Shown piece by piece: positions 918 to 12,181 of a stretch of DNA of 14,398 bases (position 1 is the stretch's first letter; each line of letters opens with the position of its first letter). The notes beneath the pieces are model-generated. The model did not search any database, was not told the origin of the DNA, and was given only the letters and a program-made list of their open reading frames with translations. The stretch is from a virus (Duplodnaviria > Heunggongvirae > Uroviricota > Caudoviricetes): IMG/VR virus record IMGVR_UViG_2548876961_000004. One strand, 5' to 3'. Position numbers and translations under genes: made by a program.

Positions 918-1414
918 TGTCGCCATCATTACGCAAGGCTGTTGCTGCTGCTATTGGTGGTGGGGCTGCTGCCATAGCGTCTGTGCTCATCACTGGTCCG
1001 AGTGGTGACGATGGCCTGGAAGGTGTCAGCTACATACCATACGAAGATATCGTTGGCGTATGGACTGTATGTCACGGACACACCGGAAAAGACATCATTC
1101 CCGGTAAAACGTATACCGAAGCAGAATGCAAAGCCCTCCTGAATAAAGACCTTGCCACGGTCGCCAGACAAATTAACCCGTACATCAAAGTCGATATACC
1201 GGAAACAACGCGCGGCGCTCTTTACTCGTTCGTTTACAACGTGGGCGCTGGTAATTTCAGAACATCGACGCTTCTTCGCAAAATAAACCAGGGTGATATC
1301 AAAGGCGCATGTGATCAGCTACGGCGCTGGACATACGCTGGCGGTAAGCAATGGAAAGGGCTGATGACTCGCCGCGAGATTGAGCGTGAAGTCTGTTTGT
1401 GGGGGCAACAATGA
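917..1414 (+). CDS. R: SAR endolysin (phage 21 R-like lysozyme/muramidase with N-terminal signal-anchor-release domain)
   Basis: 165-aa product with Gly/Ala-rich weakly hydrophobic N-terminus ([23 protein letters not shown]) followed by a lysozyme-like catalytic region ([17 protein letters not shown]); start overlaps holin stop; stop overlaps Rz start (ATGA). Confidence 0.92.
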
Positions 1415-1878
1415 GCAGAGTAACCGCGATTATCTCCGCTCTGGTTATCTGCATCATCGTCTGCCAGTCATGGGCGGTTAATCATTACCGTGATAACGCC
1501 ATCGCCTATAAAGAACAGCGTGATAAAAAAGTCAGTGAGCTGAAGCAGGCGACCGCCACCATTACTGACATGCAGCAGCGCCAGCGTGCTGCTGATGCAC
1601 TCGATGCTAAATACACGAAGGAGTTAGCTGATGCGAAAGCTAAAAATGATGCTCTTCGGCGCAAGCTTGATAATGGTGGTCGGGTGTTCGTCAAAGGAAA
1701 ATGCCCTGTGCCATCCTCAGACGAAACCTCCAGCGCCTCCGGCATGGGCAATGATGCCACCGTCGAACTCTCTCCAGTTGCTGGACGAAACGTTCTCGGT
1801 ATCCGGGACGGAATTATCCGCGACCAAACAGCACTGAGAACGCTTCAGGAATACATCAGGACGCAATGCCTTCGATGA
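1411..1878 (+). CDS. Rz: Rz inner-membrane spanin (i-spanin)
   Basis: 155-aa product [40 protein letters not shown]... with N-terminal TM and coiled-coil periplasmic domain, very similar to recalled lambda Rz; ATG at 1411 overlaps endolysin stop. Confidence 0.9.
1631..1837 (+). CDS. Rz1: Rz1 outer-membrane lipoprotein spanin (o-spanin), embedded in the +1 frame of Rz
   Basis: 68-aa product [44 protein letters not shown]...: signal peptide with lipobox VVGC and proline-rich mature region as in lambda Rz1; AAGGAG RBS 7 nt upstream of the ATG. Confidence 0.85.
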
Positions 1879-2052
1879 TAGCGATAATTTTACTCATCAT
1901 CCTTCACATCTGGCTCTGTAGACAGGGTGGTGCTCACTTCTGGAGTGAATCATGGTTAAACATCTCATTGCTGATGCTTGATATTGAGCATCTGGCGCGC
2001 GGTAAGGGGCTGCGTTGAGATAAGAGCCAGTCATTAAAAATACCTGGATTTA

Positions 2053-2076
2053 GCCTCGCATTCGCGGGGCTTTTTT
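2053..2076 (+). terminator. Rho-independent terminator downstream of the lysis cassette: stem GCCTCGC / GCGGGGC (one G-U pair), loop ATTC, then T6
   Basis: Stem arms at 2053-2059 and 2064-2070, T run at 2071-2076. Confidence 0.45.
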
Positions 2077-2079
2077 ATT

Positions 2080-2123
2080 GCCATTACAAAAGCCACTCCC
2101 TACAGAGTGGCTTTGATAATGGC
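2080..2123. repeat. 44-bp imperfect palindrome / extended hairpin: outer arms GCCATTA/TAATGGC, 2x2 internal loop, inner 10-bp perfect arms AAAGCCACTC/GAGTGGCTTT, 6-nt loop
   Basis: Directly read from sequence (outer arms 2080-2086 and 2117-2123; inner arms 2089-2098 and 2105-2114). No flanking U-tract on either strand, so not a classical intrinsic terminator. Confidence 0.5.
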
Positions 2124-2506
2124 TTATACCCTACACGGGATAACTTAACTGATATCCCTTTTAACGGATAAAGGTATTCAAGCCTGACACATCATGCGCT
2201 GTATCGTCGCTGTATTCCCGCATTAACCATGACCGTAGCCCGACGGGGAACTCCTTCTGCGCGAGTGTGCGGGAATAATCAAAAACGATGCACACCGGGT
2301 TTTTACCGCGCTAATGATTCGCGGGTTTGTCCCTCATGCTCGCCAGTCCTGTGCGGGGGTGGAAGAAACAGGACACTCACACAGATTCTTGTGGGTCGAT
2401 GCTATTCCTTTCTGGATTATCCCGATGCCATTCATGCAAGGGCTGTATCAGACGTTCGTCATGGCTTTCAGGCTGACGGCTCCTCCCGGTGGGGTGGCCT
2501 GCCACG

Positions 2507-2518
2507 GGGCGGGAGCGT
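2507..2518. other. Candidate cosN (cohesive-end site) with variant core GGGCGGGAGCGT, flanked by ACG and CGCGG as in lambda (ACG-GGGCGGCGACCT-CGCGGG)
   Basis: About 17 of 24 positions match the recalled lambda cosN region, with divergence concentrated in the middle of the 12-nt overhang. Location about 175 bp upstream of the small terminase start matches lambda (Nu1 starts about 190 bp from the left end). Confidence 0.4.
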
Positions 2519-2690
2519 CGCGGAAAAAGGCTAGTTTTTGCATTTTTATCGGCCACCATCATCTTTGCATCTTATTGATTATTAATGGTTATTTGTTTTT
2601 TGTATGTCGAATTGAGTGTTTTTTGTTCGACGTCGAACGCGTTTTCTTAAAGTTGTTCGCACGATGCATGTTTAAAGCTCTCCGGAGGAA
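2519..2690 (+). promoter_or_regulatory. Candidate cosB-like terminase-binding region: A/T-rich, direct repeats TGTTTTTTGT (2594-2603, 2617-2626), repeated TTGTTCG motifs, and a perfect 14-bp palindrome GTTCGACGTCGAAC (2625-2638)
   Basis: Repeats read directly from sequence; position between the putative cosN and the small terminase gene is analogous to lambda cosB (R sites plus IHF site). Confidence 0.35.
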
Positions 2691-2692
2691 AT

Positions 2693-3184
2693 ATGGATCA
2701 TGAGTTGAAAAACCTGGTGCTGAATATTAATCAACTGGCGGCTTTATCTGGTCTGCACCGCCAGACTGTCGTGGCAAGACTGAAAAACATTCGTCCCGCT
2801 GGTGGACATGACAAACTCAAGCTATACCGGTTGACCGATATTCTGACTGAATTTATGGGGTTACCACCGCCGGTTGCTGAGGGCGAAATGGATCCACATG
2901 AACGCAAAGCCTGGTATCAGTCTGAACGTGAGCGTCTTAAGTTCGAACAGGAAACGGCACAACTCATTCCGGCCAGTGATGTCAGACGGGAGTTTGCCAT
3001 CTGGGCAAAAGCGGTCGTGCAGGTGCTGGAGACATTACCGGATATTCTGGAACGTGACTGTGGTCTGCAGCCTGCCGCTGTGAGCCGTGTTCAGTCCATT
3101 ATTGATGATCTGCGCGATCAGATAGCCCTGCGGGTGACCGAAGCAGGTGCGGATGATGAGGAGGAATTACAGCAGGAGGAGTAA
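2693..3184 (+). CDS. Terminase small subunit (Nu1-like function; N-terminal HTH DNA-binding domain, acidic C-terminus)
   Basis: 163-aa ORF immediately upstream of and overlapping (TAATG) the large terminase; N-terminal helix-turn-helix-like segment NINQLAALSGLHRQTVVARLKNI; GGAGG RBS 4 nt upstream; synteny cos-terS-terL. Confidence 0.8.
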   Translation: MDHELKNLVLNINQLAALSGLHRQTVVARLKNIRPAGGHDKLKLYRLTDILTEFMGLPPPVAEGEMDPHERKAWYQSERERLKFEQETAQLIPASDVRREFAIWAKAVVQVLETLPDILERDCGLQPAAVSRVQSIIDDLRDQIALRVTEAGADDEEELQQEE

Positions 3185-5286
3185 TGCTGAATCAGGAAAC
3201 CGCAAAGGCAGCACGAACCGATTCAGGTTATATCCTTCGCGCACCGAGACGAATGCGGGTTGCTGATGCCGTTGCTCAGTATATGCGGGTGCCCATGGGG
3301 GCCGGGAACTCAGTCCCGTGGGATCCGCTGGTGGCACCGTATGTTATTGAGCCGATGAACTGCCTGGCCTCGCGTGAATACGACGCAGTGATATTTGTTG
3401 GCCCGGCACGAACCGGCAAGACTATCGGCCTGATTGACGGCTGGGTGATTTACAACGTGATTTGCGATCCTGCGGATATGCTGATCATTCAGATGACGGA
3501 GGAAAAAGCCCGCGAACACTCCAAAAAACGACTCGCCAGAACGTTTCGCGTCAGCCCGGAAGTGGTCAGTCGCCTGAGTCCGAACAAAAATGACAACAAC
3601 GTTTATGACAGAACATTCCTTGCTGGCAACTACCTGAAAATCGGCTGGCCGTCAGTCAATATCATGTCCTCATCAGATTATAAATGCGTGGCGCTGACGG
3701 ATTATGACCGTTTTCCGGAAGATATTGATGGCGAGGGGGATGCCTTCTCTCTTGCCTCAAAACGTACCACCACATTTATGTCCAGTGGTATGACGCTGGT
3801 GGAGAGTTCCCCCGGCAGGGATGTGAAGGATGTGAAATGGCGACGGACTTCACCGCATGAGGCTCCACCAACCACGGGGATACTGTCGCTCTATAACCGT
3901 GGCGATCGCCGTCGCTGGTACTGGCCCTGTCCACACTGTGGTGAGTATTTTCAGCCCTGCGGCGATGTGGTTGCTGGTTTCCGTGATATTGCCGATCCCG
4001 TGCTGGCAAGTGAGGCGGCTTATATTCAGTGTCCTTCCTGTTCAGGACGGATTATGCCTGAACAAAAACGTGAGCTGAACGGACGTGGGGTCTGGTTGCG
4101 GGATGGTGAATCCATCAATGCGGATGGTAGTCGTTATGGTGATCCCCGACGCTCACGTATTGCGTCATTCTGGATGGAGGGTCCGGCAGCTGCTTACCAG
4201 ACACTCTCGCAACTCGTTTACAAACTGCTTACTGCAGAACAGGAATACGAGACAACCGGAAGTGAAGAAACACTCAAGACGGTTATCAATACCGACTGGG
4301 GATTACCTTATCTTCCCCGCGCCAGCATGGAGCAACGAAAAAGTGAACTGCTTGAGCAGCGGGCAGAGCCAGTTCCTTCCAGCAGTGTGCCGGATGGCGT
4401 TAATTTCCTTGTGGCGACAGTGGATGTGCAGGCGGGACGTCATCGCCGTTTTGTGGTTCAGGTAACGGGCTATGGCAGCCGTGGCGAACGCTGGATTATT
4501 GATCGTTACAACATCACGCAGTCATTGCGCGGTGACAGCGACGGTGAGAGCCAGCGAATTGATCCGGCCAGCTATCCGGAAGACTGGGATGTCCTGCTGA
4601 CGGATGTTTTTCATAAAAGCTGGCCGCTGGCCTCCGATCCTTCTCAACAAATGCGACTGATGGCAATGGCGGTGGACTCCGGCGGTGAAGACGGGGTCAC
4701 TGATAATGCCTATAAATTCTGGCGTCGTTGCCGTCGTGATGGCCTTGGTAAACGTATTTACCTGTTTAAGGGCGACAGCATCCGGCGCGCAAAACTGATC
4801 ACCCGTACATTCCCTGATAACACCGGACGAACGGGCCGACGGGCGCAGGCCGCAGGTGATGTGCCGCTCTGGCTTCTTCAGACGGATGCACTGAAAGACC
4901 GGGTGAATAACGCGTTATGGCGTGACTCTCCAGGTCCCGGCTATGTGCATTTCCCTGACTGGCTGGGGAGCTGGTTTTACGACGAACTGACGTATGAAGA
5001 GCGGAGTAGTGACGGGAAATGGAGTAAGCCGGGTCGCGGTGCCAACGAAGCTTTTGACCTGATGGTGTATGCCGAGGCTCTGGTCATTCTGCATGGATAC
5101 GAAAAGATCCGCTGGCCGGATGCACCGGGGTGGGCGAGCCGGGAAACCTGGCTGGAGAGTGTCCCGGACAGTACCGAACCGTCACCCTCACCGGAACCGG
5201 TATCCACGCCTGTTAAAAAACAAAAACGGAAGAAAACAGTAACTGACGATGTTAACCCCTGGCTGACTTCCGGAGGATGGTTATGA
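3184..5286 (+). CDS. Terminase large subunit, lambda gpA family (ATPase plus nuclease)
   Basis: 700-aa product with P-loop/Walker A (VGPARTGKT) and a Cys cluster (CPHCGEYF...CPSCSG) reminiscent of gpA-type terminases; CAGGAGGAG RBS; C-terminal Pro/Ser/Lys-rich tail. Confidence 0.92.
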   Translation: MLNQETAKAARTDSGYILRAPRRMRVADAVAQYMRVPMGAGNSVPWDPLVAPYVIEPMNCLASREYDAVIFVGPARTGKTIGLIDGWVIYNVICDPADMLIIQMTEEKAREHSKKRLARTFRVSPEVVSRLSPNKNDNNVYDRTFLAGNYLKIGWPSVNIMSSSDYKCVALTDYDRFPEDIDGEGDAFSLASKRTTTFMSSGMTLVESSPGRDVKDVKWRRTSPHEAPPTTGILSLYNRGDRRRWYWPCPHCGEYFQPCGDVVAGFRDIADPVLASEAAYIQCPSCSGRIMPEQKRELNGRGVWLRDGESINADGSRYGDPRRSRIASFWMEGPAAAYQTLSQLVYKLLTAEQEYETTGSEETLKTVINTDWGLPYLPRASMEQRKSELLEQRAEPVPSSSVPDGVNFLVATVDVQAGRHRRFVVQVTGYGSRGERWIIDRYNITQSLRGDSDGESQRIDPASYPEDWDVLLTDVFHKSWPLASDPSQQMRLMAMAVDSGGEDGVTDNAYKFWRRCRRDGLGKRIYLFKGDSIRRAKLITRTFPDNTGRTGRRAQAAGDVPLWLLQTDALKDRVNNALWRDSPGPGYVHFPDWLGSWFYDELTYEERSSDGKWSKPGRGANEAFDLMVYAEALVILHGYEKIRWPDAPGWASRETWLESVPDSTEPSPSPEPVSTPVKKQKRKKTVTDDVNPWLTSGGWL

Positions 5287-5495
5287 ACCAGAATGATATC
5301 GAAGCCATGATTCAGCGTTATACGGAAGCTGAAATGGCGGTGCTGGACGGAAAATCCGTCACCTTTAATGGTCAGCAGATGACCATGGAAAACTTATCTG
5401 AGATCCGGCAGGGACGGCAGGAGTGGGAGCGCCGCCTTGCGGCTCTGATTACACGACGACGGGGGCATCCCGGGTACCGGCTGGCGAGGTTCTGA
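5283..5495 (+). CDS. Head-tail joining protein, lambda gpW-like
   Basis: 70-aa product MNQNDIEAMIQRYTEAEMAVLDGKSVTFNGQQMTMENLSEIRQGRQEWERRLAALITRRRG..., same size and character as recalled lambda W (68 aa); ATG at 5283 overlaps terminase stop (ATGA) with GGAGG 6 nt upstream. An in-frame ATG at 5277 has no spacing to the RBS, so 5283 is preferred. Confidence 0.8.
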   Translation: MNQNDIEAMIQRYTEAEMAVLDGKSVTFNGQQMTMENLSEIRQGRQEWERRLAALITRRRGHPGYRLARF

Positions 5496-7004
5496 TGGCA
5501 ATTCTTGATGATGTGATTGGCGTTTTTTCACCAGGATGGAAAGCGGCAAGGCTGCGTTCCCGTGCGGTGATCCAGGCTTATGAGGCCGTAAAAACGACGC
5601 GGACACACAAAGCCCGGCGGGAAAACCGAACTGCCGACCAGTTAAGCCAGTACGGGGCCGTGTCGTTACGTGAGCAGGCCCGTTACCTTGATAACAACCA
5701 CGATCTGGTTATTGGTGTATTTGACAAGCTGGAAGAACGGGTGGTGGGGAAAAACGGGATTATTGTCGAGCCACATCCGGTATTACGCAATGGGGCCATT
5801 GCCCGTGATCTGGCAGCGGAGATACGCACCCGATGGAGTGAATGGTCTGTCAGTCCGGAAGTCACCGGGCAGTTTACCCGTCCGATGCTGGAACGTCTGA
5901 TGCTGCGTACCTGGCTGCGCGATGGTGAGGTGTTTGCCCAGATGGTTTCCGGGCGCATAAACAGCCTGACGCCTTCTGCCGGTGTTCATTTCTGGCTGGA
6001 GGCGCTCGAGCCAGACTTTATTCCCATGACCAGTGATGAGAGCAACAGGCTGAATCAGGGCGTGTTTGTTGATGACTGGGGGCGTCCCGAAAAATATCTG
6101 GTGTATAAAAGCCGTCCCGTATCCGGACGGCAGATGGAAACCAAAGAAGTGGATGCAGAGCGAATGCTGCATCTTAAATTTGTTCGCCGTCTGCACCAGA
6201 TGCGCGGGACGTCTTTGTTGTCCGGTGTGCTGATCCGCCTCAGTGCCCTGAAAGAGTATGAGGATTCTGAGCTGACTGCAGCAAGGATCGCCGCTGCTCT
6301 GGGGATGTACATCCGGAAAGGCGATGGGCAGAGCTATGAACCGGATGGTAATGGCAGCAAGGATAAGGAACGCGAGCTTACCATTCAGCCAGGCATTATT
6401 TACGACGATCTGAAACCCGGCGAAGAAATCGGAATGGTGAAGTCGGATCGCCCCAATCCTAACCTTGAAACTTTTCGTAATGGTCAGTTGCGTGCCGTGG
6501 CGGCGGGCAGTCGTCTGAATTTTTTCCAGTACAGCGCGCAACTATAACGGCACTTACAGCGCCCAGCGTCAGGAGCTGGTTGAATCCACTGATGGCTACC
6601 TGATCCTGCAGGACTGGTTTATTGGTGCCGTCACCCGCCCGATGTATCGTGCCTGGCTGAAACAGGCTGTGGCATCCGGTGTTATCAGGCTACCCCGCGA
6701 TCTTGACCGTTCTTCACTGTATACCGCGGTGTATTCCGGACCGGTGATGCCGTGGATTGACCCTGTTAAGGAGGCTGAGGCCTGGAAAATTCAGATTCGT
6801 GGTGGAGCAGCGACAGAATCAGACTGGGTACGTGCAGGTGGTCGTAATCCGGATGATGTCAAACGTCGGCGCAAGGCCGAAATTGATGAAAACCGCAAGC
6901 TGGATCTGGTATTTGATACCGATCCGGCCAGTGATAAAGGAGGCAGCAGTGCCGCAACGAAACGACAGGAGCCGCAGCACACCGACGACCAGTCCGAAGA
7001 ATAA
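5495..7004 (+). pseudogene. Portal protein (lambda gpB-like), interrupted by a frameshift at a T6 homopolymer (6520-6525): N-terminal part in frame 5495..6547, C-terminal part in the +1 frame 6519..7004
   Basis: ATG at 5495 overlaps gpW stop (TGATG). The frame stops at 6545-6547, while the adjoining +1 frame is open from 6519 and encodes a plausible continuation (...SSTARNYNGTYSAQRQELVESTDGYLILQDWFIGAVTRPMYRAWL...). Removing one T from the T6 run restores a single ORF of about 500 aa, the expected portal size. Confidence 0.85.
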
Positions 7005-7017
7005 TTCCTGGTTCAGG

Positions 7018-8976
7018 ATGCAGGCTGGTCACCAGAGTGACGCGGATATTTATATTTATGACGAGATTGGTTTCTGGGGTGTTACAGCGAAGCAGTTTAT
7101 CAGTGATCTGAATGCACTGGGCGATATCACCCACATTAATCTCAATATCAATTCACCGGGTGGCGATGTCTTTGAAGGCATCGCCATTTTTAATGCACTG
7201 AAAACACATGGTGCGTCCATTACCGTTTATGTCGACGGTGTGGCGGCGTCAATGGCGTCGGTCATTGCGATGGTGGGAAAACCGGTCATTATGCCGGAAA
7301 ACTCCTTCATGATGATTCATAAACCATTTGGCTTTACGGGCGGTGATGCGGAGGACATGCGCACCTATGCCGACCTGCTCGATAAAGTTGAGGCGGTTCT
7401 GTTACCCGCTTATGCACAGAAAACCGGGAAAACCACCGATGAAATTGCTGCCATGCTGGCGGATGAGACCTGGATGTCCGGTGCCGAATGTCTGGCACAT
7501 GGATTTGCTGATCAGGTGACGCCAGCCGTTAAGGCAATGGCATGTATTCAGTCAAAACGTACAGAGGAATTTAAAAAGATGCCGGAATCCATTCGAAACA
7601 TGATTACTCCGCCACGCAACAGTGCTCCACGCGTACAGGATGATGGACCTGCAGCCTCCCGGACGCCAGTGCAGGCAGCAGCACCTGTGGTGGATGAAAA
7701 CAGTATCCGTGCGCAGGTACTGGCAGAGCAAAAAGCGCGTGTAAACGGTATTAATGATCTGTTTGCCATGTTTGGCGGGCGTTATCAGACGCTGCAGGCT
7801 CAGTGTCTTGCCGATCCTGAATGTTCGCTGGAGCAGGCCCGCGAAAAGCTGTTGAACGAGATGGGGCGCGAGTCCACGCCATCTAATAAAAATACCCCGG
7901 CTCATATTTATGCCGGAAACGGTAATTTTGTGGGGGATGGGATCCGCCAGGCGCTGATGGCGCGTGCCGGATTTGAAAAAAACGAACGTGATAATGTCTA
8001 CAACGGGATGACCCTGCGTGAATATGCCCGTATGTCACTGACTGAACGGGGTATTGGGGTTTCCAGTTATAACCCGATGCAGATGGTCGGTGCGGCGTTC
8101 ACACACAGTACGTCTGACTTCGGTAATATTCTGCTGGATGTTGCGAACAAAGCCATTCTGCAGGGCTGGGAAGATGCCCCTGAAACCTATGAACAGTGGA
8201 CGCGGAAAGGTCAGTTGTCTGATTTTAAAATTGCCCATCGTGTGGGTATGGGGGGCTTCAGTGCTCTGCGTCAGGTGCGTGAAGGGGCGGAATATAAATA
8301 CGTCACCACCGGAGATAAACAGGCCACTATTGCACTGGCGACCTATGGCGAGCTGTTCAGTATCACCCGTCAGGCCATTATCAATGATGATCTGAATATG
8401 CTGACCGATGTCCCGATGAAACTGGGCCGTGCGGCGAAATCCACTATTGCCGATCTGGTTTATGCCATTCTGACGTCTAACCCGAAAATCTCCACAGATA
8501 ATGTAAGTCTGTTCGATAAAGCGAAACATGCAAACGTACTGGAGAGCGCTGCAATGGACGTGGCATCGCTGGATAAAGCCCGCCAGTTGATGCGCGTTCA
8601 GAAAGAGGGGGAGCGTCATCTGAATATTCGTCCTGCGTTCGTACTGGTACCGACGGCGATGGAGTCTGTTGCTAACCAGGTCATTCGCTCCTCAAGTGTC
8701 AAGGGGGCTGACATTAACGCCGGTATTATTAACCCGGTGAAAGATTTTGCGACCGTTATTGCAGAGCCTCGTCTTGATGATAACAGCCAGACCACCTTCT
8801 ACCTGGCTGCGTCAAAAGGCTCCGATACGATTGAAGTGGCTTATCTCAACGGTGTGGATACGCCATATATTGATCAGATGGAGGGCTTCAGTGTGGATGG
8901 CGTGACAACGAAAGTGCGTATTGACGCCGGTGTCGCGCCAGTTGATCACCGCGGTCTGGTGAAATGTACGGCGTAA
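7018..8976 (+). CDS. Prohead protease (ClpP/S49-like) - scaffold - major capsid protein fusion polyprotein
   Basis: 652-aa product: N-terminal ClpP-like serine protease domain (DADIYIYDEIGFWGV...NINSPGGDVFEGIAIFNAL...VDGVAASMASVIAMVG), central Ala/Pro/Gln-rich linker, C-terminal ~300-aa HK97-fold-type capsid domain. Starts 13 nt after the portal stop; start codon choice uncertain (weak RBS). Confidence 0.85.
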   Translation: MQAGHQSDADIYIYDEIGFWGVTAKQFISDLNALGDITHINLNINSPGGDVFEGIAIFNALKTHGASITVYVDGVAASMASVIAMVGKPVIMPENSFMMIHKPFGFTGGDAEDMRTYADLLDKVEAVLLPAYAQKTGKTTDEIAAMLADETWMSGAECLAHGFADQVTPAVKAMACIQSKRTEEFKKMPESIRNMITPPRNSAPRVQDDGPAASRTPVQAAAPVVDENSIRAQVLAEQKARVNGINDLFAMFGGRYQTLQAQCLADPECSLEQAREKLLNEMGRESTPSNKNTPAHIYAGNGNFVGDGIRQALMARAGFEKNERDNVYNGMTLREYARMSLTERGIGVSSYNPMQMVGAAFTHSTSDFGNILLDVANKAILQGWEDAPETYEQWTRKGQLSDFKIAHRVGMGGFSALRQVREGAEYKYVTTGDKQATIALATYGELFSITRQAIINDDLNMLTDVPMKLGRAAKSTIADLVYAILTSNPKISTDNVSLFDKAKHANVLESAAMDVASLDKARQLMRVQKEGERHLNIRPAFVLVPTAMESVANQVIRSSSVKGADINAGIINPVKDFATVIAEPRLDDNSQTTFYLAASKGSDTIEVAYLNGVDTPYIDQMEGFSVDGVTTKVRIDAGVAPVDHRGLVKCTA

Positions 8977-11416: not shown

Positions 11417-11440
11417 GCCCCGGTTATCCGGGGCTTTTTT
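11417..11440 (+). terminator. Rho-independent terminator between V and G (GCCCCGG-TTAT-CCGGGGC followed by T6)
   Basis: Perfect 7-bp GC-rich stem at 11417-11423 and 11428-11434, then TTTTTT at 11435-11440. Confidence 0.55.
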
Positions 11441-11456
11441 GCAGGTGGAGAACATG

Positions 11457-11843
11457 ATGTTTCTGAAACAGGGCACGTTTAATTATGAAAAGCAGTCCGT
11501 GGTGCTCAGTGAGCTGTCCGGGCTGCAGAGAATTGAATATCTGGCGTTTGTTCAGCAGCGAACGGCAAAGTTTGATGCCGAAGAGGGAGAACTGCCGGAG
11601 GCTGAACGACAGATTGCTTTTCTGCGGATGGGGATGGATATCAATGCCTGGCTGGTTTCCCGCTCACTGTGGAATGCGGAACAGTCTCAGGATGTTGAGA
11701 CGCTTTGCGCATCCGTTATTACAACATGGTCGTATGATGCCCTGGGAGCGGGGGCGGAGATGGTTCTGTCGCTGAGCGGTATGGGAGCCATTGAGAATGC
11801 CGGGGATTTGGAGCATGAGGTGCTGACGCCGGAAAAGTCCTGA
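11457..11843 (+). CDS. G: Tail assembly chaperone, lambda gpG-like (alternative start ATG 11454)
   Basis: Product MFLKQGTFNYEKQSVVLSELSGLQRIEYLAF... parallels recalled lambda G (MFLKTESFEHNGVTVTLSELSALQRIEHLAL...); GGTGGAG RBS 6 nt upstream. Confidence 0.85.
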   Translation: MFLKQGTFNYEKQSVVLSELSGLQRIEYLAFVQQRTAKFDAEEGELPEAERQIAFLRMGMDINAWLVSRSLWNAEQSQDVETLCASVITTWSYDALGAGAEMVLSLSGMGAIENAGDLEHEVLTPEKS

Positions 11844-12181
11844 CGCGGGAAATGCAGTTTGTCATGCGGCTTGCCCGGGAGTTCCGGCGGGCAGACTGGC
11901 GGCGGATGCTGTCGGAAATGTCGGCCACTGAGCTTGGTGAGTGGGGCGATTATTTCCGGATGCAGAGCTTCAGTGATGTGTGGATGGATGCGCAGTTTGC
12001 CTCGCTGAAGGCATTGATCGTGAGAATGGTGTCCGGTAGCAGTGATGCTGCGGTGGCTGATTTCAGCCTTTTACCGGAAGAGAACGGGATACCGGAGCGA
12101 ACGGACGAAGAACTGATGCATCTTGGGGAAGGTATTTCCGGAGGTGTGCGTTATGGACCAGATAGCCAACCTGGTCATTGA
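11457..12181 (+). CDS. T: Tail assembly chaperone G-T fusion produced by -1 programmed ribosomal frameshift near the end of G (shift window 11819-11843; likely at GGAAAAG 11831-11837); T-specific part 11838..12181
   Basis: The -1 frame relative to G is open from 11819 and runs to TGA 12179-12181, encoding ...VLTREMQFVMRLAREFRRADWRRMLSEMSATELGEWGDYFRMQSF...; the arrangement is the conserved G/G-T frameshift of lambdoid tail operons. Confidence 0.7.

What the first reader, a model, noticed from the sequence alone, without database searches (positions are those of the whole stretch)
6511..6547. Portal gene split by a single-base frameshift in a T6 homopolymer
The portal reading frame (start 5495) ends at 6547, but the +1 frame is open from 6519 to 7004 and encodes what looks like the contiguous C-terminal part of the same protein. 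A single extra T in the run at 6520-6525 (T6 where T5 would give ...RLNFSSTARNYNGTYSAQRQELVE...) explains it. This is either a homopolymer sequencing error or a genuine inactivating mutation, which would mark a defective prophage unable to assemble heads even though the rest of the module looks intact.
Basis: seen in the sequence. Interest (0 to 1): 0.55.

Follow-up and report, generated by a model that had tools for sequence, protein, structure and literature searches.

The report
Known frameshifted portal pseudogene, O157 prophage Sp3
The phage portal gene in this window really is broken by a one-base frameshift, but it is the already catalogued, clonally inherited portal pseudogene of the defective prophage Sp3 (CP-933M) of E. 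coli O157:H7, so it is ordinary.

Summary
There is a T6 run at 6520-6525. The portal frame runs from ATG 5495 to TAA 6545-6547. The +1 frame is open from 6519 to 7004 and encodes the rest of the same protein.

The window is the late operon of prophage Sp3 of E. coli O157:H7. The same allele occurs in 287 complete E. coli records, including Sakai, EDL933, TW14359, EC4115 and Xuzhou21. It is therefore a real, inherited mutation and not a sequencing error.

Every intact relative examined carries one 1509-nt ORF of 502 aa. This holds for 48 of 48 sampled full-length genome hits and for all 16 full-length phage hits, among them mEp460, cdtI and Ayreon.

One refinement: the intact alleles read CTG-AGT-TTT-TCC. 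The lesion is therefore G to AT, a substitution plus one inserted base. No AA+T5 or AG+T6 intermediate was found.

The 350-aa product stops at the position aligned to lambda gpB residue 369-370. It lacks the tunnel loop, the second wing segment and the crown.

RefSeq Sakai already flags ECs_0827 as a portal pseudogene. Asadulghani et al. 2009 score the Sp3 portal as defective and found that Sp3 is neither excised nor packaged.

Verdict: already known, low interest.

The parts
5495..6547 (+). 5' part of the lambda-family portal gene in its original frame. It gives 343 native residues, then 7 out-of-frame residues (FQYSAQL), then a premature TAA at 6545-6547.
   Evidence: Translation. Pfam PF05136 Phage_portal_2 scores 249 bits and covers profile positions 3-324 of 354. 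The intact orthologue starts at the equivalent ATG.
6519..6525 (+). The lesion: A + T6 where all intact alleles have G + T5. This is a net +1 insertion in codons 342-343.
   Evidence: The AA+T6 56-mer is exact in 287 records. AA+T5 is exact in none. AG+T6 is exact in none.
6522..7004 (+). 3' part of the portal gene, stranded in the +1 frame. That frame is open from 6519, after TGA 6516-6518. The segment encodes residues 343-502 of the intact protein plus the native stop.
   Evidence: It is 100% identical over 160 aa to the mEp460 portal C-terminus. It is annotated as pseudogene ECs_0827 in Sakai. No Shine-Dalgarno-like sequence lies before the internal ATG 6642 or GTG 6669.
5283..5495 (+). Upstream gpW-like head-tail adaptor gene, intact. 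It is given as context. Its stop overlaps the portal ATG.
   Evidence: It is 100% identical over 70 aa to mEp460 gp03.
6949..8976 (+). Downstream ClpP-like prohead protease / major capsid protein fusion gene, intact here. It is given as context. It overlaps the 3' end of the portal gene by 56 nt.
   Evidence: Pfam CLP_protease and Phage_capsid_4. It is 99.2% identical to mEp460 gp05.

Best explanation
This is a genuine, vertically inherited frameshift mutation that has turned the portal gene of prophage Sp3 (CP-933M) of E. coli O157:H7 into a pseudogene.

The ancestral sequence CTG AGT TTT TCC is still present in the O55:H7 sister lineage, in more than a thousand other E. coli prophages and in isolated phages. 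In this lineage it became CTG AAT TTT TTC C, a G to A change plus one extra T (equivalently, G to AT).

Ribosomes run out of frame after Phe343. They add seven wrong residues and stop at TAA 6545-6547.

The 350-aa product keeps the N-terminal wing, both stem helices and the clip. It lacks the tunnel loop, the second wing segment and the crown, 159 residues in all. It should therefore not form a working dodecameric portal, so the Sp3 head module cannot build packaging-competent proheads on its own.

Shown here: the sequence change, its fixation in O157:H7 assemblies, the intact single-ORF state in all relatives, and the position of the break relative to lambda gpB. Inferred: loss of portal function.
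For: - Sequence and frames are established.
- The window is identical in the portal region to Sp3 of Sakai and to EDL933, TW14359, EC4115, Xuzhou21 and many others.
- 287 records hold the exact AA+T6 56-mer.
- All 47 sampled non-identical rows are one base shorter than the query.
- All 48 sampled full-length non-O157 rows span 1509 nt and carry one portal CDS.
- 7 of 7 fetched intact alleles plus mEp460 read GAGTTTTTCC.
- All 16 full-length phage hits, including mEp460, cdtI, Tritos, Ayreon and phi458, span 1509 nt, one base fewer than the query; all but one of them annotate a portal CDS there.
- The O55:H7 strain 2013C-4465 has the orthologous prophage with only 15 differences in 14 kb and an intact 502-aa portal. 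Its serotype comes from PMC9413875 and PMC4929515.
- Pfam PF05136 scores 275 bits on the intact protein, and the N fragment loses the last 30 profile positions.
- The alignment to lambda gpB (PDB 8k38) puts residue 342 opposite gpB 369. The gpB domains are stem 343-367, wing 368-452, crown 453-511 and DNA-contacting Gln379 (PMC10721106).
- Asadulghani et al. 2009, Table 1, score the Sp3 portal 'D'. Their Table 2 shows no circularisation, replication or packaging for Sp3.
Against: - No direct evidence against this explanation was found.
- No expression or protein data were examined, so low-level recoding on the U6 tract cannot be excluded by sequence alone.
- NCBI's PGAP pipeline annotates the two pieces as ordinary CDSs in most O157 RefSeq genomes. 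This is an annotation choice and not evidence of function.
- The 100% conservation among O157:H7 genomes reflects recent clonal descent. It says nothing about selection in either direction.
- Only sampled rows of the large hit lists were inspected, not every record.
Confidence: 0.95

Rival explanations
1. Homopolymer sequencing or assembly error: the real gene has one base fewer and is intact.
For: Errors in homopolymer length are a common artefact of some sequencing platforms (general knowledge). The lesion sits in a T run.
Against: The identical 1510-nt sequence is found in dozens of listed complete genomes, and the AA+T6 56-mer is exact in 287 records. These include Sakai, EDL933, TW14359, EC4115 and Xuzhou21, which were assembled separately by different groups. 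From my own knowledge, they were also made over two decades on different platforms. The allele also differs from intact alleles by a substitution (6519 A versus G), which a run-length error would not produce.
Confidence: 0.01
2. Recoding: the U6 tract supports +1 ribosomal slippage (tRNA-Phe moving from UUU 6521-6523 to UUU 6522-6524) or transcriptional slippage. Some full-length portal, an N342 variant, would then still be made, and the gene would be leaky rather than dead.
For: A +1 re-pairing of tRNA-Phe on UUU_U is perfect. It would give exactly ...RLNFSSTAR..., the native sequence apart from N342. Only 12 portal copies are needed per head (PMC10721106).
Against: No relative has the T6 or two-frame architecture, so nothing suggests an evolved signal. 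The 0-frame A-site codon after the slip codon is UUC. It is not a stop codon and, from my own knowledge, not a rare codon either. No Shine-Dalgarno-like stimulator lies just upstream (GGGCAGTCGTCTGAAT). From general knowledge, runs of 6 are short for efficient RNA polymerase slippage in E. coli. Sp3 was not packaged after mitomycin C induction.
Confidence: 0.03
3. Two genuine genes: a split portal whose N- and C-terminal pieces are made separately and co-assemble, or a truncated portal kept for a new role such as a dominant-negative decoy against mEp460-like phages.
For: PGAP calls two CDSs. The N fragment retains most of the Pfam domain.
Against: The break lies inside the best-conserved stretch shared with lambda gpB and the 8vhx portal (LRxxAAxxxxSxxxxxRxY). 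The first in-frame starts of the C piece (ATG 6642, GTG 6669) lie 41-50 codons downstream of the break. They have no Shine-Dalgarno-like sequence and would omit the tunnel-loop region. The split form is confined to one recent clone. All other members, more than 1500 records and all 16 full-length phage hits, are unsplit.
Confidence: 0.02

Closest known systems
ECs_0826/ECs_0827 of prophage Sp3, E. coli O157:H7 Sakai (NC_002695.2); equivalent to the CP-933M region of EDL933
   Same: The sequence is identical across the portal region. The window has 3 mismatches in 14 kb to Sakai. Over the 7.5-kb EDL933 stretch that was fetched it has 2 mismatches. The locus is already annotated as a portal pseudogene and is scored defective in PMC2669165.
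   Different: Nothing differs in the finding itself. The window comes from another O157:H7 strain, with private SNPs at 2632 and 7982.
Intact portal of the mEp460 / cdtI / Ayreon group of lambdoid phages, and WP_000985949.1 of O55:H7 strain 2013C-4465
   Same: DNA identity is 98.3-99.8%. The gene order is the same: terS, terL, gpW-like, portal, protease-MCP fusion.
   Different: These have one ORF of 1509 nt and 502 aa reading ...RLSFSS.... The window has G to AT at codon 342 and so two frames.
Bacteriophage lambda portal protein gpB (PF05136; PDB 8k38)
   Same: They share the same Pfam family (275 bits) and the same position in the head operon. A conserved stem/wing motif aligns.
   Different: The relationship is distant in sequence (phmmer E = 1.3e-4, aligned only over residues 305-440). 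The protein here is truncated at the equivalent of gpB residue 369-370.
Programmed frameshift sites in phage late operons (for example lambda G/GT, a -1 shift)
   Same: Two overlapping frames encode one protein, and a homopolymeric or slippery tract lies at the junction.
   Different: The G/GT arrangement is conserved across phages and is present elsewhere in this window (11831-11843). The portal split is absent from every relative, needs a +1 shift and has no recognisable stimulator.

Membership tests
Lambda-family phage portal protein (Pfam PF05136, Phage_portal_2) | Significant match to the family profile above the gathering threshold | tested here: met
   The intact orthologue scores 275.5 bits (cut-off 32.9) over profile positions 3-354. 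The window N fragment scores 249.3 bits over positions 3-324.
Lambda-family phage portal protein (Pfam PF05136, Phage_portal_2) | Position in the head operon between large terminase / gpW-like adaptor and the prohead protease | tested here: met
   terL 3184-5286, gpW-like 5283-5495, portal 5495-7004, protease-MCP 6949-8976.
Lambda-family phage portal protein (Pfam PF05136, Phage_portal_2) | Complete polypeptide with wing, stem, clip, tunnel loop and crown, as required for a functional member | tested here: not met
   The reading frame ends at residue 350. The region aligned to gpB 370-511 (tunnel loop, second wing segment, crown) is out of frame. It is a pseudogene of the family, not a functional member.
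Programmed ribosomal frameshift / recoding site | Two-frame architecture and slippery tract conserved among homologues | tested here: not met
   All sampled homologues have a single ORF with T5. No AG+T6 allele exists in 5,426 genomes.
Programmed ribosomal frameshift / recoding site | Recognisable +1 stimulators: an upstream Shine-Dalgarno-like element, or a stop or rare codon in the A site | tested here: not met
   Direct reading of 6500-6530 shows the upstream sequence GGGCAGTCGTCTGAAT. The A-site codon is UUC. It is not a stop; that it is not a rare codon is my own knowledge.
Programmed ribosomal frameshift / recoding site | Measurable production of the trans-frame product | not testable with these tools
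   This needs a reporter assay or proteomics.
Phase-variable (contingency) homopolymer locus | Run-length polymorphism among closely related strains | tested here: not met
   287 records have the exact AA+T6 56-mer. The sampled rows jump from 100% straight to 96.4%, with no 98.2% row (which a T7, or a T6 allele with one SNP, would give). AA+T5 is exact in 0 records.
Sequencing artefact | Not reproducible between independent assemblies | tested here: not met
   The sequence is identical in Sakai, EDL933, TW14359, EC4115, Xuzhou21 and many others.

The most novel reading that the evidence does not exclude
The U6 tract allows a small fraction of ribosomes or transcripts to shift +1, which restores a full-length N342 portal. 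The otherwise intact Sp3 head module would then remain a leaky donor of portal and capsid proteins to the pool of interacting defective prophages in O157:H7. Alternatively, the stable 350-aa fragment could poison portal rings of incoming mEp460-type phages.
Probability: 0.03. Interest if true: 0.4.

Novelty: already known. Interest (0 to 1): 0.08.

Why it matters
This finding matters little on its own. It is one of many catalogued lesions that make the O157:H7 prophage Sp3 defective.

Its modest value is threefold:
- It is a clean lineage marker. The portal is intact in the O55:H7 progenitor-type strain and broken in all sampled O157:H7.
- It is a caution for annotation. In every PGAP-annotated O157 record listed, the two pieces appear as ordinary 'phage portal protein' CDSs. 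Only Sakai flags a pseudogene.
- It illustrates independent decay of the same prophage. The O55:H7 copy instead carries a nonsense mutation in the protease-capsid fusion gene.

Tried and rejected
- **Sequencing error.** Rejected because identical sequence occurs in 287 complete records, including separately assembled reference strains.
- **Simple T5 to T6 slippage as the whole lesion.** Rejected as incomplete. Every intact allele fetched has G at the position of 6519. The presumed intermediates AA+T5 and AG+T6 are absent as exact 55- and 56-mers from 5,426 genomes.
- **Programmed frameshift or split gene.** Rejected on lack of conservation and lack of stimulators or restart signals.
- **Literature search by locus tag** (ECs0826, ECs0827, Z1360, Z1361). 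It returned only unrelated papers.
- **Near-identical intact paralogue in the same genome.** A megablast search finds only one place in O157 genomes. A distant search finds 1-5 places per O157 genome. Sakai has 2, so one further, diverged place, which I did not examine.
- **Structure prediction and large protein-database searches.** Not run, because sequence alignment to lambda gpB with published domain limits already locates the truncation.

Full report
**Observation**

The sequence at 6510-6529 reads gtcgtctgaa ttttttccag, so the T6 run is at 6520-6525 as stated. From ATG 5495 the frame is open for 350 codons. It ends ...AGSRLNFFQYSAQL followed by TAA at 6545-6547.

The +1 frame has TGA at 6516-6518 and is then open from 6519 to the stop ending at 7004. 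It encodes IFSSTARNYNGTYSAQRQELVE.... Removing one T joins the two into a 502-aa protein.

T6 runs are frequent in this window, 28 against about 9 expected. The run itself is therefore not the signal. The frame break is.

**Identity of the locus**

A megablast of 5495-7004 against 5,426 complete E. coli genomes gives 100% matches in E. coli O157:H7 strains. These include Sakai, EDL933, TW14359, EC4115 and Xuzhou21.

In Sakai the match lies in 'prophage Sp3, lambda-like phage'. The window differs from Sakai at three positions in 14 kb. It differs from EDL933 at two positions in the 7.5-kb stretch fetched.

The gene order is holin, endolysin, Rz/Rz1, small and large terminase, gpW-like adaptor, portal, ClpP-protease/major-capsid fusion, then tail genes up to the tape measure.

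**Real mutation or error**

A 56-mer centred on the run is found exactly in 287 records. All 47 sampled rows that are not identical span one base fewer in the record.

In a spread sample of the full-length search, the nine 100% rows are O157-type and carry two portal CDSs. The next 48 full-length rows all span 1509 nt and carry one portal CDS.

All 16 full-length hits in the phage collection also span 1509 nt. They include mEp460, cdtI, Tritos, Ayreon and phi458, whose records name hosts such as K-12 and MC1061.

The allele is therefore reproducible across separately assembled genomes and confined to one clone. All relatives are unsplit. This refutes the sequencing-error alternative and the 'two genuine genes' alternative.

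**Exact nature of the lesion**

Seven intact alleles were fetched: O55:H7 2013C-4465, O145:NM, O127:H6 E2348/69 and four others. All seven, and mEp460, read CTGAGTTTTTCC. The window reads CTGAATTTTTTCC.

The difference is therefore G to AT, which is a transition plus one added T, or equivalently a transversion plus one added A. The two conceivable intermediates are absent as exact matches from the whole collection: AA+T5 and AG+T6.

It gives Asn342 where natural proteins have Ser342.

**Origin**

The closest intact relative is the orthologous prophage of strain 2013C-4465. It has 15 differences in 14 kb and the same gene order. That strain is an O55:H7 (PMC4929515, PMC9413875). PMC9413875 describes O55:H7 as the progenitor lineage of O157:H7.

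The frameshift therefore most likely arose after the split from that O55:H7 group and was inherited clonally. This is an inference from one O55:H7 genome, and I did not survey the others.

The O55:H7 copy has its own nonsense change (Q334*, at window position 7948) in the protease-capsid fusion gene.

**Consequence**

The intact protein is a lambda-family portal: PF05136 at 275 bits over profile positions 3-354. The window's N fragment reaches only profile position 324. The C piece alone matches nothing.

phmmer against PDB sequences aligns residues 305-440 to lambda gpB residues 332-474. The alignment is ungapped across the break, so residue 342 lies opposite gpB 369.

The published gpB domain limits are wing 24-249 and 368-452, stem 250-279 and 343-367, clip 280-342, and crown 453-511. 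Gln379 contacts DNA (PMC10721106).

The truncated product therefore ends at the stem/wing boundary. It lacks the tunnel loop, the second wing segment and the crown, 159 residues in all.

From established lambda genetics (my own knowledge, not tested here), loss of gpB prevents formation of packaging-competent proheads. Loss of function in Sp3 is inferred, not shown.

The candidate internal restarts in the C piece, ATG 6642 and GTG 6669, lack Shine-Dalgarno-like sequences. They lie 41-50 codons past the break.

**Rest of the module**

tblastn of mEp460 late proteins against the window gives full-length matches at 95-100% identity for terL, the adaptor, protease-MCP, the DUF2190 protein, gp07, the tail proteins, G and T. 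The tape measure matches to the end of the window. Only terS is more diverged (86%). Only the portal is split across two frames.

**What is already known**

Asadulghani et al. 2009 (PMC2669165) list Sp3 as follows:
- repressor and antirepressor absent;
- integrase defective;
- replication genes absent;
- recombination defective;
- portal 'D' (defective);
- terminase, lysis and tail functions conserved.

Experimentally, Sp3 showed no circularisation, replication or packaging. The lesion is thus already catalogued, and it is one of several defects.

**Recoding considered**

A +1 slip of tRNA-Phe from UUU 6521-6523 to UUU 6522-6524 would re-pair perfectly and would give the N342 full-length protein. 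Three things argue against an evolved signal:
- the following 0-frame codon is UUC, which is not a stop codon and, from my own knowledge, not a rare one;
- there is no Shine-Dalgarno-like element just upstream;
- no homologue shares the arrangement.

I give this about 3%. It can only be settled by a reporter assay or by proteomics.

**Verdict**

The 'genuine inactivating mutation in a defective prophage' reading is supported, with the refinement that the lesion is G to AT. The feature is already known and annotated, and its interest is low.

Noticed in passing
window 7948 (C); L003:9453 region (T): The orthologous prophage in O55:H7 strain 2013C-4465 has an intact portal. It carries a C to T nonsense change (Q334*) in the ClpP-protease/major-capsid fusion gene, which PGAP flags as 'internal stop'. 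The same prophage has lost a different head gene in each sister lineage.
   Followed up: partly
window 5423-6547 and 6669-7004: PGAP annotates the two portal pieces in the O157:H7 RefSeq genomes I inspected as ordinary 'phage portal protein' CDSs. They are WP_010904538.1 (374 aa, from a GTG 72 nt upstream of the true ATG, overlapping the gpW-like gene) and WP_127446149.1 (111 aa). Only the Sakai record flags a pseudogene.
   Followed up: partly
window 11831-11852: The tail chaperone genes G (11454-11843) and T (11852-12181) are arranged as in lambda, with T in the -1 frame relative to G. The -1 frame is open from about 11831. GGAAAAG at 11831-11837 sits just before G's stop and is the likely site of the conserved G/GT programmed -1 frameshift.
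   Followed up: partly
window 11418-11440: A GC-rich hairpin (CCCCGG...CCGGGG) followed by T6 lies right after the major tail gene. mEp460 annotates a rho-independent terminator in the equivalent position, right after its major tail gene.
   Followed up: partly
window 2632, 7982, 11648: The window is not Sakai or EDL933 but another O157:H7 strain. It differs from Sakai at these three positions and from EDL933 at the first two. The C to A change at 7982 creates an A7 run (7976-7982) inside the protease-capsid fusion gene. It stays in frame and gives T345N.
   Followed up: partly
window 6949-8976: A single 675-aa ORF fuses a ClpP-type prohead protease domain (residues 31-191) to a major capsid protein domain (residues 378-672). 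The fusion is known and named by NCBI. The 2009 Sakai study nevertheless scored the Sp3 'Head' function as absent.
   Followed up: partly
window 2693-3184: The small terminase subunit is only 86% identical to that of mEp460 and does not align at its N-terminus. The adjacent large terminase is 99% identical. This looks like a mosaic boundary near the presumed cos end.
   Followed up: no
window 1399-1878 and 1631-1837: An Rz-like endopeptidase gene has an Rz1-like lipoprotein gene embedded in another frame. Both are annotated in Sakai as ECs_0820 and ECs_0821.
   Followed up: no
window 2018-2693: A stretch of about 675 bp between the lysis genes and the small terminase gene has no annotated gene in Sakai. 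It contains ORFs of 101 and 129 aa (2229-2534, 2314-2703), and the cos region is expected near its 3' end.
   Followed up: no
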